DNA of 64,000 nucleotides from an uncultured bacterium (GTDB taxonomy: Bacteria; Planctomycetota; UBA1135; GCA-002686595), in assembly GCA_943787795.1 (NCBI GenBank), contig CALSNU010000006.1:320001-384000 (forward strand), given 5' to 3'. The position numbers are program-made. Shown here in pieces: positions 26,601-32,600 of the stretch (position 1 is the stretch's first letter; every line of letters starts with the position of its first letter).

Positions 26601-29600
26601 AGCGCCTGCCGCACCGCGGCGAGGCCCTCGTCAATATTCCCCTCAGTCAGCTCCTTCTTGCTCTTGAAGAACGAAAAGGAACTCCCGAGGCGCTCAGTCA
26701 GGGTCTCGAACATGCCGGGGTTCTAGCACATGCCGGGCCCAGCGGGGCGCGCTGGGGCACCGGCAACCGTCATTCTGACACGCGGCGGATCGCGGCGCCG
26801 ATCGAGGCGAGCCGATCCTCAATGCGCTCATACCCGCGATCGATGTGGTAGACGCGGTGGACCTCCGTGGTCCCGCGGGCCACGAGACCGGCCATCACCA
26901 GCGCCGCAGAGGCTCGGAGGTCGGAGGCCATGACCGGGGCTCCGGAGAGCTCGGGGGTGCCGCGCACCACCACCGCTGTGTTCTGACGTCGCACGTTGGC
27001 ACCCAGGCGGCTGAGCTCGGGGACGTGCATGTACCGGTCCGGAAAGATCCGTTCCGTGATGATGCTCAGCCCGTCGGCCTTCGTCATCAGGGCCATCCAC
27101 TGGGCCTGGAGATCAGTGGGGAAACCCGGGTAGGCGTGGGTGGTGACGTCGGTGGAGCGCGGCGGGGTGTCGGCCACGTCGTAGGCCTGCACCTCGATCC
27201 AGTCCTCGCCGACCTCGAACGGCACGCGTGCCTCGTTCATGTGGTCGAGGAGCGCGCCGAGGTGTGTAGGCTGACAGTCGGCCACCCTCACCTGCGCCCC
27301 CGCGAGCGCCCCCGCCAGCACGTAGGTGCCGGCCTCGATCCTGTCTGGAATCACGTCGTGGGTGGCCCCGTGGAGTTCGTCCACCCCTTCGATGGTCAGC
27401 ATGGGCGACCCCTGTCCGGAGATCTTCGCCCCCATGGCGACCAGCGCGTCACAGAGGTCGATGACCTCCGGCTCGCAGGCCGCGCTCTCGATGACCGTGG
27501 TCCCCCTCGCCAGGGTGGCTGCCATGACCACGTTGGCCGTCCCCAGCACGCTCGGCCCGTTCGCAGACCCGAGGAAGACCCGGGCGCCGCGTAGGCCGCC
27601 GGGGGGCGCCTCCGCCACGACGAAGCCGTGCTCGATCCGGACCTTGGCTCCGAGGGCGCACAGCCCCTTGAGGTGGATGTCGATGGGCCGGACACCGAAG
27701 TTGCAGCCCCCGGGCAGGCTCACCTCGGCCCGCCCAAGGCGCGCCAGCAGCGGCCCCAGGACGCAGACCGAGGCCCGCATCTTGCGGACCGCCTCCCAGG
27801 TGGCGCGCCCTGTGATGTCCCCCTCCGCGCAGATGTGGACGGTGCCGTTCGCGTCCTGCTCGGCCTCCGCGCCCAGATCCCGGATGATCCCCAGCATGGT
27901 CGAAACGTCGGCCAGGCGCGGCGCGCGGGTCAGCGTCACGGGCTCCCGCGAGAGCAGGGAAGCGGCGAGGATGGGCAGCACGGCGTTCTTTGAGCCGGCG
28001 GTGCGAATCGTCCCCTCGAGCGTGTGGCCGCCCTCGATGATCAGTTTGTCCATGGTCCCCCTGAAGTCGCCTGGGCCGGCAGGGCCGGTGGCGTGGTACC
28101 CGGTTGAGCCCGCCTGGCGGGCCCCCGGAGGCCGATCGGGGCCTCTCGGCCCCGCGGTTGCGGGCGTCTACGGAACGCCCTCGGCTTGTGGTGCGGTGGT
28201 GCCCGGACCCCCCTCGGACCCGGACGACCCAGAGCGTAGCTACATGGTGGGGCCGGATCCAAGGCCCCGTCGAGGGACTCCTCCCTCGGGGAATTCCTCC
28301 GGGTGGACCGCCGAGAGGCCGCCGGCCGGTCAACGGGCAAGCTTGAGGCGCAGACCCGCCAGAAGCGCAGACCAGAAGGGCGCCCAGAAGAGCCCTCAGA
28401 AGCCCCCTCGGTGTTGACGCCGCGCCCCCCCGGCACCTATCCTCTTGCGCTTGCTCGCGGCGATTCAGAGTCCCTGGAACCACCAGGGGCCGTCACCGCA
28501 GCGCCGCCGGGTGCCGCCCCGGCCTCCCTCAAGACGACACCAACGCCTCGCCGCGAATCCGCCGGCGATGACATGGATCAAATGGATAACCAAGACGTGA
28601 GCCCCGAGCAGCCCGGCGCCAACGAGCATCAGCCCGCGGTGCAGCCCACCGCCGAGCAGCCCACCGCCGAGCAGCCGGCCGCCGAGCAGCCGATCGCCGT
28701 GCCCCATCACGACGGAGCCGAGTCCGTGGCGCACGATGCCGTCCAGCACGATGCCATGCATCAGGGCGACGGGCACCACGCCGGCGCAGCCGATCCCGAC
28801 GCTGCGCACGCGGGAACCGAGAGCCTGCCGGAGCCCATGGAGGCCTACCACTCCCCCGAGCCCGAAGAGGAAGAGGAGCTCGAGCCGGTCTCGGCCCACG
28901 CCCCCTTCGACCTTCTCGAGGACGAAATCCCGAGCTTTGGCGCGCTGCTCGCCGCTCGGCCTTCTGTCTTCGAGACGCCCAAGACCTTCGACAGCTTCAA
29001 CCGCAAGGTCGATGGGCTTGAGGCCACAGGTGAGACGGGCCGCCGCCGCGCGCTCGGCCTCTGGATGCTCGGTCGCTACGACGAGGCCGCCGAGGCCCTC
29101 GCAGCCTTCGAGGACGACGACGTGGCCTGCTACACGCGGGGCCGCTCGCTGGTGTCGGCTGGCCGCGCCGCCGAGGCCGTCGCCATCTTCAATGCGCTGA
29201 GCAGCAAGTACCCCGAGGAGTCGCGCCCGCTGGGCGACATGCTCGACGCGCAGCTCGACGCCAACCTCAGCTCAGGTGACGTCGAGTCGGCCATCGCCGC
29301 CACGGAACAAGCGGTTTCGGACCAGTCCGAGGCCTTCCGCTCCAGCGCCGAGGGCCTGCACCTGCTCGGACGCCTGGCTGAGCTCTCCGGGAACTACACC
29401 CAGGCCATCGAGCACTTCGTGGCCTCGCGCGGGGCAGATCCGACGCACCGCCGGAACCTCTTCCGCCTCGCCTACCTCTCGGAGCGCGTCGGGCAGGAGC
29501 AGCTCGCCCTCGATGCGTACGAGACCCTCGCCACCATGCTCCCCGTCGACCGAGCGGTCATGGTGAACCTCGGGGTCCTGTACGAGGACCTCGGTCAGGA

Positions 29601-32600
29601 CCAGGACGCCGCCGCGTGCTACGACACGATCGTCCGCACGGACCGCACCGACCGCTTCGCGCGCCTGTACCTGAAGGACGCCAAGGCGGGCATGTCGATG
29701 TTCTACGACGAGGATCTCGAGAAGAAGGAGGACCGCCTCAACCAGATCCTCCGCATCCCCATCACCGACTTTGAGCTGTCCGTCCGGGCCCGCAACTGCC
29801 TGAACAAGATGGACATCATGACCCTGGGCGACCTGGTCAAGAAGACGGAGTCCGAGCTCCTCAGCTACAAGAACTTCGGCGAGACCTCGCTCACCGAGAT
29901 CAAGGAGATCCTCGCCAGCAAGGGGCTGCGCCTCGGCATGGCTCGCGAAGAGGCCGTGGCAAGCATCGCCAAGGCCCGCACGGCCCAGGAGGGTCGCGAC
30001 CTCGACCCGAACGATCCGCGCAACAAGCCGATCTCCGACCTGAAGCTCTCGATCCGCGCGCGGCGCACCGTCGAGAACATCGGCTGCCTCACCCTCGGGG
30101 ATGTCACCGCGCACTCCGAAGAGGAGCTGCTCGGCATGCCCAACTTCGGGGTCACCTCGTTGCTCGAGTTGCGGAACCGCCTCGCGGAGTACAGCCTCAC
30201 CCTCAAGGGCGAGGACTGAGCTGAGGCTGATCGACGCGTGTACGAGTTCATCTCAGGCACCGTCTCGGACCGAACGCCGGCGAGCGTCGTGATCGACGCC
30301 GCCGGCGTTGGCTTTGAGTTGCTGGCCCCCATCGGCGCCGCGTTCCCCGAGGTCGGCGAGCAGGCAACGGCCTTCGTGCACCTCGTGGTCCGTGAGGACG
30401 CGCAGACCCTCTATGGGTTCGCTCGCCGTGAGGACCGGAACCTGTTCCGCGTGCTCCTGCGCGTGCGCGGCGTGGGTCCAAGCATGGCCCTCGGCATCCT
30501 CTCCGGGCTCGGACCGGCTGACCTGGTCGCGGCGGTGCAACGTGAGGATCTCGCGGCCTTCACCGCCATCAAGGGCGTCGGCAAGAAGACCGCAGAGCAG
30601 CTGATGCTCGACCTGCGGGACAAGACGCCGCTCCTCGCGAGCCTGGCCGGCGGTGCGGACGTGACTCCAGTCCAGGAGGCGCCAGCACCCGCCGAGGCCT
30701 CGGTCCATGCGGACGCCGTCTCGGCTCTGGTCTCGATCGGCTACTCGGACAAGGAAGCCGCCAAGGCCGTGGACAAGGCCCTCAAGCACCTGGAAGGCGC
30801 CGACCTCGAGGCCGTCGTGAAGGCAGCCATGCGCGGCTAGCGCCCGCCTACCGCGTCAGGCCCGCCTACCGCGTCAGGCCCGCCGACCTCGCCTCACGCA
30901 GGGCGAGGGCACGGAGGTCTTCTGGCGCGGCGAGGTGCAGGCGATCAATCCAGCGCGCCCCGGCCCCGGGGAGGTCCGCCCACCCACCCCGCAGCGACTC
31001 CGCCTGCATGCGCTCGATGAGCCGGCGAAGAAGACGGCGGTAGGCTGCTCCATGGGGCGCGCCGCCCCCTCCGAAGTTCTGGTCTGCCGCGTCGAGCAGG
31101 TCGACCCACATCAGCCTGGGGTCCTCGAGCACGGCCAGGGCCACGAGTTGAGCGCGCTCCTCGAGCGCTTCGGCAATCCTCCCGCCCGAGAAGCCCTGCC
31201 CCGCCGCGAACGCGATCAAGCGCAGCACCCGCGGTGCCGTCAGCGGGTACCAGGCCTTGCGGTCGCAGAGGTGGGCCTCCTCGTGGGCCACGACGCCCTC
31301 GGTGAAGAGGTCCAGCGGAGGCACCACGGGGTCCCCTGGACTCCTGTCGCACATGACGGCGAGGCGCATCCTGTCGGCAGCGCCGAGAGCGGGCTGCAAC
31401 GACATGACTGGAGCCGGCGACGCCGCTGGCACGGCGAGGGCTCGGGCCAGGGCCCCCCGATCCGGCTCGCCCCCCGGCGCGCTGAAGGCCCTCAGCAGCG
31501 AGGCACAGTAGGCGCGCTCCAACGCGATCACCTCGAGGTCGATGTAGAACCCTTCGTGCAAGGCCGCCCCAGCGATCGCCCCGCCGCGCCGCGTGATGCG
31601 CCCGGGTACGTCCGCCCCCTGGCACCAGATGGCGACGCCCTCGAACGGGCGGCCGAGGTGCGCCCCGGCCCGAGGCTGCGCGTGAAGGCGCCTCAACACC
31701 GTGGCGTCCGGCCCTCCTTGACCCGCCCCCCGGCCCACGAGCGCGAAGCGCCCCATGGCCTCGAAGGCGGCGGCGAGCCCGGGAACCGGAGCCCCAGGCG
31801 CTCCTCTCCCCAGGCGCCCGTCTTCCTCGCTGAAGGAGGGGCCGGGATGAACGATGCTGCCGGCCGGTCCGTAGCTGATCACGGGGGATTCGAACCCGCC
31901 ATCGGGGAGGTCCAGCCAACCGCAGCGCTCGAGGATGCGGGCGACCTCGTCGTGCAGCTCCACCGCGCTCGTGATCCTCCCTCCGCTCGCCCCAGCCGAA
32001 GCGAACGCCGCCATGGCGTCCAGGCGCCGCCCGAGGTTCAAGAGCGCCCCCAGGGCGGCGCGGCCACGGAGCGCCGCGACCTCGAGGTCCCGGGCGCCCT
32101 CTGGATCCACCGGGGCGATGCTCCCGGCCCAGCCCACCGCCTCCGAGAACCAACCGGCCGCCAGCAGACGCTCCCCGACCTCGCGGCCTTCACGCTGACT
32201 GGGGGCCCCGACGCCCAATGCTCGCACGGCCTCCATGAGCGCCAGGAGTTCGGGGTCGAGCGGCGCCCCCGCGTCGTCCTTGAGCTCCGAGGGGAGGTCC
32301 GCGCACCAGGCATCGAGCACGCCCTCGAGCCCCGGGGGTGACTCGCCATCGGCGCCCCCGCCTCCCCCCTGAGGTCCTGCGTCCGACCGAGCGCCTCCTC
32401 CCCCAGCGGACGCCAGCGGCCCCCGTGAGCCGAAGGCCTCGACCAGCAACGTCCGCCAGCCGGTGCCCTTGGTGACCGGCCGCGCGCCACGTCGAAAGGC
32501 CTCCAGCAGCTCGGTGGCCGCGCGTCGGCTATCCCCCGAGAGGCGCGCCACGCCTTGCGCGAGGGCCAGCTCGATCTCCGCCCCCGAGATGAGCGGCTGG

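What a model noticed while it worked through the whole genome (the two positions that open the first line are those of the whole stretch)
28573..30219. Free-standing protein with two RNA polymerase alpha C-terminal domains fused to TPR repeats
Besides the normal rpoA (g02225), the genome encodes a 548-aa protein (g03271) made of an acidic, His-rich head, a TPR array and two tandem copies of the RNA polymerase alpha C-terminal domain, without the alpha N-terminal assembly domain. I read it as a trans-acting alpha-CTD: a factor that occupies UP-element DNA or the activator surfaces normally contacted by polymerase-borne alpha-CTD and couples them to TPR-bound partners, a mode of transcription control not described in bacteria. 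The family is spread through Planctomycetota yet unstudied.
Evidence so far: Pfam: RNA_pol_A_CTD at 384-448 (i-E 2.5e-22) and 481-539 (1.5e-11), TPR_16 x3 at 159-358; best Swiss-Prot hit is RpoA, 42%. Canonical rpoA g02225 sits in the ribosomal operon. ESM-atlas: the 10 family sets shown (23 of the 30 nearest clusters) all carry RNA_pol_A_CTD + TPR families (58-178 members each), commonest phylum Planctomycetota. Gene next to murA in 166 genomes of the order and 330 overall. Literature search (Planctomycetes / alpha C-terminal domain / tetratricopeptide / RNA polymerase): none of the 6 listed papers holds 'alpha C-terminal domain'.
(Added by a program. Inside this text positions count along the whole contig: contig position 320,001 is position 1 of the stretch shown here. 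"Call 12" and the like, gene names such as g00115 and contig names such as C1 are that model's own, and its searches are not shown. The text may have been shortened before it was handed on; [...] marks where a part breaks off. The agent that wrote the report below was given it as the finding of a first reader that could run no searches.)

Follow-up and report, generated by a model that had tools for sequence, protein, structure and literature searches.

The report
TPR protein carrying two alpha-CTDs
A gene found in nearly every planctomycete joins a protein-binding scaffold to two copies of RNA polymerase's DNA-touching tail domain; one copy is kept more constant than the polymerase's own tail, which hints that part of the polymerase's promoter-contact job has moved to this separate, unstudied protein.

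Summary
Window 28573-30219 (+) encodes a 548-aa protein with an acidic, His-rich head, about 8 TPR hairpins and two RNA polymerase alpha C-terminal domains (CTD1, CTD2). It has no alpha N-terminal domain. The true rpoA lies in the ribosomal operon on another contig.

This scan has met the same family at least nine times on other DNA. I re-tested the main earlier claims:
- Matches in 386 of 401 Planctomycetota genomes, and in 0 of 151 genomes of one other phylum.
- ruvA directly downstream on the same strand in 50 of 57 loci.
- A probable counterpart (Plim_0602) scored essential in Planctopirus limnophila.

New here:
- The DNA-contact residues of alpha-CTD are kept in both copies. The R265 equivalent is present in 130/130 (CTD1) and 129/130 (CTD2) representatives.
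- CTD1 is 74-77% identical across the phylum, whereas the polymerase's own alpha-CTD there is only 54%, below its N-terminal domain. In two other phyla the alpha-CTD is 73-76% identical and above the N-terminal domain.

No binding to DNA, polymerase or any partner has been shown. I found no paper on the family. Rival readings: a RuvA-linked repair factor, or a nucleoid adaptor.

The parts
28414..28443 (+). Promoter-like site (TTGACG, 18 nt, TATCCT), about 130 nt upstream of the ATG
   Evidence: 1 site found against 0.0 expected in 50 shuffles. RNA-library contigs of two runs of one study begin at 28449 and 28448. This is a weak hint only, because contigs cannot show a transcript start.
28573..30219 (+). 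Gene for the 548-aa TPR protein with two alpha-CTDs (stop codon included)
28573..28908 (+). Lineage-specific acidic, His-rich, low-complexity head (residues 1-112)
   Evidence: 0 K/R, 25 D/E, 11 H; most relatives align only from about residue 100-160 onward; the head is kept in frame in near relatives (L005 from residue 9, L008 from residue 16).
28641..28699 (+). 15-nt tandem repeat (3.9 copies) encoding the pentapeptide repeats of the head
   Evidence: copy number differs in relative P0003.
28936..29751 (+). TPR superhelix, about 8 helical hairpins (residues about 122-393), including the conserved C-terminal capping and connector helices
   Evidence: TPR families. AF2 pLDDT 93.8, 16 long helices. 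Foldseek hits only to TPR superhelices; connector length invariant in 130/130.
29722..29946 (+). CTD1, the first alpha-CTD (residues 384-458). The most conserved part of the protein
29947..30012 (+). Variable-length linker between the two alpha-CTDs (residues 459-480)
   Evidence: pLDDT 63-78; spacing between the two R265 equivalents is 76-114 residues.
30013..30216 (+). CTD2, the second and more divergent alpha-CTD (residues 481-548)
30238..30840 (+). ruvA, starting 19 nt after the stop. Probably in the same operon
   Evidence: RuvA_N, HHH_5 and RuvA_C domains; no terminator-like site in the gap; same arrangement in 50 of 57 loci. Co-transcription itself is not shown.
26770..28053 (-). murA, divergently transcribed upstream neighbour
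   Evidence: EPSP_synthase family, E 2.9e-95; divergent upstream in 32 of 57 loci.

Best explanation
The gene encodes a cytoplasmic adaptor that carries a pair of polymerase-type alpha-CTDs off the polymerase.

Proposed mechanism:
1. Both alpha-CTDs bind the DNA minor groove as the polymerase's alpha-CTD does. The residues are shown to be kept; the binding itself is inferred.
2. CTD1 also keeps the acidic patch that, in E. coli, faces sigma region 4.
3. CTD1 sits on a connector of invariant length after the TPR superhelix. CTD2 hangs on a flexible linker, so the two can occupy neighbouring minor grooves, as the two alpha-CTDs of one polymerase do.
4. The TPR superhelix binds a protein partner that is still unknown, possibly the polymerase holoenzyme.

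The polymerase's own alpha-CTD is unusually free to vary in this phylum, while CTD1 is held as constant as a normal alpha-CTD. I therefore read the protein as having taken over part of the ancestral, strongly constrained alpha-CTD job at promoters. That would make it a general, probably essential, trans-acting transcription cofactor of Planctomycetota.

The long acidic, His-rich head is a local addition of this lineage. Its role is unknown.
For: Architecture and fold
- Searches give the domain layout. AF2 gives pLDDT 93.8 and pTM 0.72.

DNA-contact set, in 130 representatives of 50%-identity clusters (numbering from the ungapped match to E. coli RpoA). Counts are CTD1 / CTD2:
- R265: 130 / 129
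- N294: 129 / 126
- G296: 130 / 127
- S299: 128 / 126
- E302: 130 / 124
- N268: 122 in CTD1; replaced by K or R in 108 in CTD2
- C269: 127 in CTD1

Sigma-facing patch in CTD1
- D259: D 114, E 15. E261: 124.
- The roles of the 265, 261 and 287 determinants are taken from PMC1874639 (passages read).

Geometry
- TPR-to-CTD1 spacing is 27 residues in 130/130.
- CTD1-to-CTD2 spacing is 76-114 residues.

Conservation swap
- In 11 genomes where both genes were sampled: CTD1 76.8% mean pairwise identity, RpoA alpha-CTD 54.4%, RpoA N-terminal domain 59.3%, TPR region 33.1%. CTD1 exceeds RpoA alpha-CTD in 55 of 55 genome pairs.
- RpoA N-terminal domain against alpha-CTD, 30 genomes each: Planctomycetota 58.1 / 54.5 (CTD higher in 138 of 435 pairs); phylum of G401 62.5 / 76.0 (427 of 435); phylum of G405 55.3 / 72.6 (435 of 435).

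Origin inside the phylum
- T replaces E. coli K298 in planctomycete RpoA (at least 90% of 30 genomes), in CTD1 (125/130) and in CTD2 (115/130). K is kept in both other phyla.
- CTD1 forms one clade (SH-aLRT 99) and CTD2 one clade (93).

Distribution
- 386 of 401 genomes; 241 of 243 high-quality genomes; mostly one match per genome.
- 0 of 151 genomes in another phylum.

Essentiality lead
- Plim_0602 carries both the RpoA and the TPR COGs. Its insertion index is 0.00074, against cut-offs from 0.013, and it is listed with the essential genes (PMC10632474 supplement and methods passages).
Against: - No experiment or prediction shows binding to DNA, polymerase, sigma or any partner.
- The position of V287, the centre of the activator-contact patch, varies in both copies.
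- CTD1 has an invariant acidic residue (125/130) where RpoA has K or R at position 297, inside the DNA-contact hairpin. It also has T at 298. Both could weaken DNA binding.
- The protein outside the alpha-CTDs is acidic: net charge median -11 downstream of residue 150.
- The only strong context signal is ruvA, not a transcription gene.
- AF2 gives no confident fixed orientation between the TPR domain and CTD1: pTM 0.66 at pLDDT 95 for residues 290-460.
- The swap rests on two comparison phyla only, and neither is a sister phylum. Related genomes are not independent samples.
- Orthology of Plim_0602 rests on its COG labels, not on its sequence. The paper's authors warn that condensed DNA can mimic essentiality.
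Confidence: 0.4

Rival explanations
1. A DNA repair or recombination accessory of RuvA. The two helix-hairpin-helix alpha-CTDs would bind DNA without sequence preference at junctions or stalled forks, and the TPR domain would recruit or regulate RuvA or another repair protein.
For: - ruvA lies directly downstream on the same strand, with a gap of 8-398 nt, in 50 of 57 loci spanning the phylum.
- Here the gap is 19 nt with no terminator-like site in it.
- ruvA is separated from ruvB (137 kb away) and from ruvC (another contig) in this genome.
- ruvA and ruvC also have very low insertion indices in P. limnophila, 0.0032 and 0.0059.
Against: - In P. limnophila the probable counterpart (Plim_0602) is far from ruvA (Plim_2446).
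- 6 of 57 loci lack the arrangement.
- This reading does not explain why CTD1 keeps polymerase-like surface residues, or why RpoA's own alpha-CTD is relaxed.
- Conserved operons with ruv genes need not mean a shared function. The yebC-ruvC case is my recollection, not checked here.
Confidence: 0.17
2. A nucleoid or chromosome-organising adaptor. The two alpha-CTDs would anchor to DNA in general, and the TPR domain would tether DNA to another cell structure, contributing to the condensed planctomycete nucleoid or to segregation.
For: - Both alpha-CTDs keep the DNA-contact set.
- The gene is phylum-wide and mostly single-copy.
- Arrays of alpha-CTDs exist outside the polymerase: P0228 has 11 copies. 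This suggests the domain can serve as a generic DNA-binding module.
- Planctomycete DNA is described as highly condensed (PMC10632474, passage read).
Against: - There is no signal peptide or membrane segment in the model, which is all helical repeats plus alpha-CTDs.
- The protein is acidic overall.
- CTD1 is conserved far more strictly than plain DNA-backbone binding would need, including the sigma-facing acidic patch.
Confidence: 0.15
3. An alpha-CTD decoy. The domains would not bind DNA in the cell but would titrate proteins that normally dock on polymerase-borne alpha-CTD (activators, sigma region 4, NusA-type factors). The TPR domain would control when this happens.
For: - CTD1 keeps the acidic 261 patch, and T285, E286 and E288 around the 287 patch.
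- The acidic residue at position 297 and T at 298 could lower DNA affinity.
Against: - Residues whose known role is DNA contact are invariant in both copies. That would be unnecessary for a pure decoy.
- Position 287 itself varies.
- An essential, universal decoy is hard to rationalise.
Confidence: 0.08

Closest known systems
C-terminal domain of the bacterial RNA polymerase alpha subunit (RpoA alpha-CTD, Pfam PF03118; solved e.g. as 1COO, 1LB2, 3K4G)
   Same: - Both C-terminal domains match the family well above its cut-off.
- CTD1 aligns without gaps to E. coli RpoA residues 241-320, E 6.5e-16.
- The DNA-contact set and the sigma-facing acidic patch are kept.
- There are two copies per molecule, as there are two alpha-CTDs per polymerase.
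   Different: - There is no alpha N-terminal assembly domain, so it cannot enter the polymerase core as alpha does.
- The two copies sit in tandem on one chain behind a TPR superhelix.
- The gene lies outside the ribosomal operon.
- CTD1 has an invariant acidic residue at position 297.
Lineage-specific essential polymerase cofactors such as CarD and RbpA of Actinobacteria (recalled, not tested here)
   Same: If the best explanation holds, both are phylum-restricted, essential, general factors that add DNA or sigma contacts to the initiation complex in trans.
   Different: - No sequence or fold relationship.
- Binding of this protein to polymerase is not shown.
- CarD and RbpA carry no alpha-CTD or TPR domain.
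TPR-plus-DNA-binding regulators of the RRNPP type (PlcR, Rgg, NprR; recalled)
   Same: A TPR ligand-binding domain is joined to a DNA-binding module on one chain.
   Different: - Those proteins have an N-terminal helix-turn-helix and sense peptides. They are accessory genes, not universal ones.
- Here the DNA-binding modules are C-terminal alpha-CTDs, and no HTH family was found.
Other free-standing alpha-CTD proteins seen here: a 501-aa SAR324 protein with two alpha-CTDs plus sigma-70 region 4 (L111), and a 1031-aa protein with 11 alpha-CTDs (P0228)
   Same: Alpha-CTDs occur in tandem away from the alpha N-terminal domain. The SAR324 case joins them to another promoter-DNA-binding module.
   Different: - Neither has a TPR domain.
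- They match the query only weakly (39-41% over the alpha-CTDs).
- Their functions are unknown too.

Membership tests
RNA polymerase alpha subunit (RpoA; TIGR02027 / NF003513) | N-terminal dimerisation and core-assembly domain | tested here: not met
   One search shows no alpha N-terminal Pfam family. In one search the rpoA models match only their positions about 220-338 and score below cut-off (111.8 vs 227.8 bits; 125.7 vs 302).
RNA polymerase alpha subunit (RpoA; TIGR02027 / NF003513) | Gene lies in the ribosomal protein / rpoA operon, and is the only full alpha in the genome | tested here: not met
   This gene lies between murA and ruvA. The 330-aa rpoA on contig C4 lies between rpsK-rpsD and rplQ.
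Alpha-CTD domain family (PF03118) | Profile match above the curated cut-off | tested here: met
   119.1 bits against 23.8, two stretches. Separate matches of 81.5 and 46.8 bits.
Alpha-CTD domain family (PF03118) | DNA-contact residues of the 265 determinant (R265, N268, C269, G296, K298, S299; residue list recalled, determinant defined in PMC1874639) | tested here: met
   -, CTD1: R 130/130, N268 122, C269 127, G296 130, S299 128.
-, CTD2: R 129, G296 127, S299 126, position 268 K or R in 108.
- K298 is T in both copies, as it is in the phylum's own RpoA.
- This shows the residues are present. It does not show binding.
Alpha-CTD domain family (PF03118) | Activator-contact 287 determinant | tested here: inconclusive
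   T285, E286 and E288 are mostly kept. Position 287 itself varies (A 45, Q 22, S 13, E 13 of 130 in CTD1).
TPR repeat proteins | Profile matches and a superhelix of helical hairpins | tested here: met
   TPR_2 scores 59.3 bits against 27. The AF2 model has 16 long helices at pLDDT above 90. The best Foldseek hits are consensus TPR superhelices, E 9e-8.
Planctomycetota family of TPR proteins with two alpha-CTDs (named in databases only by its domains) | Same architecture, full-length similarity, one copy per genome, ruvA downstream | tested here: met
   - 6671 hits. The 120 best hits listed carry PF03118 plus TPR families, at about 60% identity over about 80% of the query.
- 386/401 genomes, mostly one match each.
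- ruvA downstream here and in 50/57 loci.
RRNPP-type TPR regulators | N-terminal helix-turn-helix DNA-binding domain | tested here: not met
   No HTH family among the 16 Pfam families matched.

The most novel reading that the evidence does not exclude
Planctomycetota run a 'split alpha subunit'. The strongly constrained promoter-contact function that other bacteria keep on the polymerase's alpha-CTD has moved to a separate, essential TPR protein carrying two alpha-CTDs. This protein joins initiation complexes in trans as a general transcription factor. Freed of that job, the polymerase-borne alpha-CTD has been able to diverge. Promoter recognition in a whole phylum would then depend on a detachable UP-element and sigma-contact module, whose supply could be regulated through the TPR domain.
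Probability: 0.27. Interest if true: 0.9.

Novelty: new variant of a known kind. Interest (0 to 1): 0.72.

Why it matters
The alpha-CTD is a textbook part of bacterial promoter recognition and activation, and it is always described as tethered to the polymerase. Here a phylum-wide, probably essential protein carries two alpha-CTDs off the polymerase, and one of them is conserved like a working alpha-CTD while the polymerase's own copy has relaxed. If the reading holds, this would be a new layout of the bacterial initiation machinery. It would also add a missing general factor for a phylum whose transcription is almost unstudied.

It explains why the gene has been overlooked. The P. limnophila essentiality study gave it the RpoA COG, so in that table it carries the same conservation values as rpoA.

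The question is directly testable, because gene deletion by homologous recombination and transposon mutagenesis are reported for P. limnophila.

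Tried and rejected
- Complex prediction of residues 100-548 with the neighbour RuvA, both given as alignments: score 0.00, no verdict. This says nothing either way.
- AF2 of residues 290-460, to test whether CTD1 is rigidly docked on the last TPRs: pLDDT 95.0 but pTM 0.66. 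Rigid docking is therefore not supported. Only the invariant connector length remains.
- Foldseek against the PDB found only generic TPR superhelices and no informative partner-bound relative.
- A search for longer, fused forms found one protein (P0273, 1370 aa, PF03118 only), so no fusion points to a partner.
- Rfam on 26000-32000 gave no match at E up to 0.1.
- NF005841 (PRK07758) matched only weakly and below cut-off, and appeared in no control genome above cut-off. I dropped it as a lead.
- RNA evidence:
  - Short contigs of four metatranscriptome runs from one study cover parts of the gene and of ruvA with 0-3 differences.
  - DNA carry-over cannot be excluded.
  - No contig bridges the stop codon and ruvA by 31 nt on both sides, so co-transcription is not shown.
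  - The uncovered stretch 28303-28403 proves nothing.
- Five of the 15 genomes without a match were re-searched with PF03118. I found only rpoA-like matches or fragments at contig ends, so the absences look like assembly gaps, though this is not proven.
-, meant as a third comparison phylum, drew the same genomes as and added nothing.
- I could not reach a sister phylum (Verrucomicrobiota, Chlamydiota) with the handles available.
- Literature: seven searches found no paper on the family. The one paper holding both 'alphaCTD' and 'Planctomycet' is about spirochete polymerase (passages read).
- The orthology of Plim_0602 was not checked by sequence.

Full report
**1. What is there**

Window 28573-30219 (+) is an open frame of 548 codons.
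- Pfam finds two RNA polymerase alpha C-terminal domains (E 6.5e-35, 119 bits against a cut-off of 23.8) and several TPR families over residues about 159-358.
- A six-frame search of the whole assembly (8 contigs, 4.71 Mb, 84.9% complete) finds PF03118 three times. Two are in this frame, at residues 384-448 (E 1.6e-22) and 481-539 (E 1.0e-11). One is on contig C4.
- The C4 copy belongs to a normal 330-aa rpoA lying between rpsK-rpsD and rplQ-adk.
- NCBIfam rpoA models match the window protein only with their C-terminal positions and fall below cut-off. It therefore has no alpha N-terminal assembly domain.
- Residues 1-112 have no K or R, 25 D/E and 11 H. They contain a 15-nt tandem repeat.

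**2. The family**

- The 5.8-billion-protein search returned 6671 hits. The 120 best hits listed carry PF03118 plus TPR families, at about 60% identity over about 80% of the query. Where a source names them, the name is only a domain label such as 'RNA polymerase subunit alpha C-terminal domain-containing protein'.
- Relatives start at about query residue 100-160, so the long head is a local addition. In near relatives it is kept in frame (L005 from residue 9, L008 from residue 16).
- In 401 Planctomycetota genomes drawn evenly, 386 have a match at E up to 1e-20. That is 241 of 243 high-quality genomes and 278 of 287 genera, mostly with one match per genome.
- Five of the 15 non-matching genomes were re-searched. 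They showed only rpoA-like hits or fragments at contig ends.
- The same query found nothing at E up to 1e-22 in 151 genomes of another phylum.
- This scan has reported the family at least nine times on other DNA. One of those reports partly failed a later check whose content I could not see.

**3. Residue-level test**

CTD1 aligns without gaps to E. coli RpoA 241-320, so query residue minus 140 gives E. coli numbering. CTD2 is CTD1 plus 90. The functional patches are as described in PMC1874639 (passages read). The detailed list of DNA-contact residues is recalled.

Counts in 130 representatives of 50%-identity clusters:

| E. coli position | CTD1 | CTD2 |
|---|---|---|
| R265 | 130 | 129 |
| N294 | 129 | 126 |
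| G296 | 130 | 127 |
| S299 | 128 | 126 |
| E302 | 130 | 124 |
| N268 | 122 | K or R in 108 |
| C269 | 127 | C 78, A 34 |
| 298 (K in E. coli) | T in 125 | T in 115 |

- The sigma-facing patch is kept in CTD1 (D259: D 114, E 15; E261: 124). It is looser in CTD2.
- Position 287, the centre of the activator patch, varies in both copies.
- CTD1 has an acidic residue at position 297 in 125 of 130, where RpoA has K or R.

**4. Origin and the conservation swap (new here)**

- T at position 298 is also the rule in planctomycete RpoA (at least 90% of 30 genomes), while two other phyla keep K. This points to a duplication inside the planctomycete lineage.
- In a tree of 105 alpha-CTDs, CTD1 forms one clade (SH-aLRT 99) and CTD2 another (93). 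The order among CTD1, CTD2 and planctomycete RpoA is unresolved with 67 columns.
- Across distant members, CTD1 is 74% identical on average (36 loci) against 54% for RpoA's alpha-CTD (29 genomes).
- In 11 genomes sampled for both genes, CTD1 (76.8%) exceeds the RpoA alpha-CTD in 55 of 55 genome pairs:

| Region | Mean pairwise identity |
|---|---|
| CTD1 | 76.8% |
| CTD2 | 49.4% |
| RpoA alpha-CTD | 54.4% |
| RpoA N-terminal domain | 59.3% |
| TPR region | 33.1% |

- Is a relaxed alpha-CTD normal? It is not in the two phyla I could reach (30 genomes each):

| Group | RpoA NTD | RpoA alpha-CTD | Pairs with CTD above NTD |
|---|---|---|---|
| Phylum of a Desulfobacterales MAG (G401) | 62.5% | 76.0% | 427 of 435 |
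| Phylum of Noviherbaspirillum (G405) | 55.3% | 72.6% | 435 of 435 |
| Planctomycetota | 58.1% | 54.5% | 138 of 435 |

The alpha-CTD held at the usual level in this phylum is therefore the one on the TPR protein. Caveats: related genomes are not independent, only two comparison phyla were used, and no sister phylum was reachable.

**5. Structure**

- AF2 with a 97-row alignment gives pLDDT 93.8 and pTM 0.72 for residues 100-548.
- The model has 16 long helices (about 8 hairpins, query about 122-393), then CTD1, then a lower-confidence helical linker (pLDDT 63-78), then CTD2.
- Foldseek finds only TPR superhelices.
- The distance from the end of the TPR domain to the R265 equivalent of CTD1 is 27 residues in 130 of 130 sequences. 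The distance between the two R265 equivalents ranges from 76 to 114.
- A sub-model of residues 290-460 has pLDDT 95.0 but pTM 0.66. I cannot say that CTD1 is docked rigidly.
- From the TPR register, several nearly invariant residues of the last repeats (F297, E338, D339) fall at positions that usually line the concave groove. This rests on recalled knowledge of the repeat and is only an inference.

**6. Context and expression**

- Gene order here: rpsP, ffh and murA on the minus strand; a 519-nt gap; this gene; then ruvA starting 19 nt after the stop. No terminator-like site lies in that gap.
- With the genome's own RuvA and MurA as tblastn queries on 57 family loci, ruvA lies directly downstream on the same strand (gap 8-398 nt) in 50.
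  - In one locus the contig ends before ruvA could appear.
  - Five loci have no ruvA within the flank.
  - One locus has it on the other strand.
- murA is divergent upstream in 32 of 57 loci.
- ruvB is 137 kb away and ruvC is on another contig.
- A sigma-70-like site lies at 28414-28443: 1 found against 0.0 expected in shuffles.
- Four marine metatranscriptome runs of one study hold short contigs over the gene with 0-3 differences. Two of them begin at 28448 and 28449. None bridges into ruvA. This is presence in RNA libraries only. It proves neither a transcript start nor an operon.

**7. Essentiality**

In the P. limnophila transposon study (PMC10632474; I read passages of the main text and searched the supplements):
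- Plim_0602 is the only gene besides rpoA (Plim_0499) with the RpoA COG, and it also carries the TPR COG.
- Its insertion index is 0.00074, against cut-offs of 0.013, 0.022 and 0.25.
- It is listed with the essential genes of Fig. S3, with the same conservation row as rpoA. It was thus counted as a universal gene, and the main text does not mention it.
- It is not next to ruvA (Plim_2446).
- Orthology rests on the COG pair and on the family being mostly one match per genome in the phylum sample. It does not rest on sequence.
- The authors note that condensed DNA can mimic essentiality.

**8. Reading**

Shown:
- the architecture;
- presence across the phylum;
- retention of the alpha-CTD DNA-contact residues in both copies;
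- an invariant connector to CTD1 and a variable linker to CTD2;
- the conservation swap with RpoA;
- synteny with ruvA.

Inferred:
- both domains bind the minor groove;
- CTD1 works next to sigma region 4 as a polymerase alpha-CTD does;
- the TPR domain binds a protein;
- part of the ancestral alpha-CTD job moved to this protein.

I put the transcription-cofactor reading at 0.40, the RuvA-linked repair factor at 0.17, the nucleoid adaptor at 0.15 and the pure decoy at 0.08. The remainder is left open. The complex prediction with RuvA gave no verdict and counts for nothing.

**9. Comparison with what is known**

- By membership this is not an RpoA, because the assembly domain and the operon position were tested and not met.
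- It is a member of the alpha-CTD and TPR domain families, and of an unnamed planctomycete family.
- It may work like the lineage-specific essential initiation factors of other phyla (CarD, RbpA; recalled), but it shares nothing with them in sequence.
- Free-standing alpha-CTDs exist elsewhere: a SAR324 protein with two alpha-CTDs plus sigma region 4 and a protein with 11 alpha-CTDs. These are also unstudied.
- I found no paper on the family in seven searches of the held library. Subscription journals are largely outside that library.

Noticed in passing
L111:1322-2827 (+) (G403, a MAG titled SAR324 cluster bacterium): A 501-aa protein with two alpha-CTDs (PF03118, E 4.3e-33) followed by a sigma-70 region 4 domain (E 1.6e-08). 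This is another free-standing alpha-CTD pair, here joined to a promoter -35-binding module.
   Followed up: partly
P0228 (protein from the 50%-identity library, no locus): A 1031-aa protein with 11 tandem alpha-CTD matches (PF03118, E 5.8e-139) and no TPR domain. It is an array of alpha-CTDs outside any polymerase subunit.
   Followed up: partly
RpoA of Planctomycetota (L071-L100): - The polymerase's own alpha-CTD is less conserved than its N-terminal domain in this phylum (54.5% against 58.1%), the reverse of two other phyla.
- It has T where E. coli has the DNA-contact residue K298.
   Followed up: yes
PMC10632474, supplementary file 5: In P. limnophila, ruvA (Plim_2446, index 0.0032) and ruvC (Plim_2444, index 0.0059) have very low insertion indices. 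Together with ruvB (Plim_2430) they appear in the list shown with the essential genes. This is unusual for Holliday-junction genes.
   Followed up: no
window 30866-34039 (-): - A 1057-codon frame with no Pfam match.
- It overlaps the ribD-like frame 33519-35024 (-) by about 520 nt.
- Relatives align only from about residue 214-240 onward, so the real start is probably further downstream. The product is conserved and of unknown family.
   Followed up: partly
window 28641-28699 (+): The pentapeptide-coding 15-nt repeat in the head differs in copy number from the 98%-identical relative P0003, which also has an extra His-containing unit. The low-complexity stretch is therefore evolving fast.
   Followed up: partly
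L008 (a MAG titled Paracoccaceae), P0068 (named Chlamydiales) and G402 (titled Anaerolineales): - L008 carries the full planctomycete arrangement (ffh, murA, this gene, ruvA) at 63-85% identity.
- P0068 is 63% identical to the query.
- G402 drew the same phylum sample as a Desulfobacterales MAG.
The taxon labels of these records are probably wrong.
   Followed up: no
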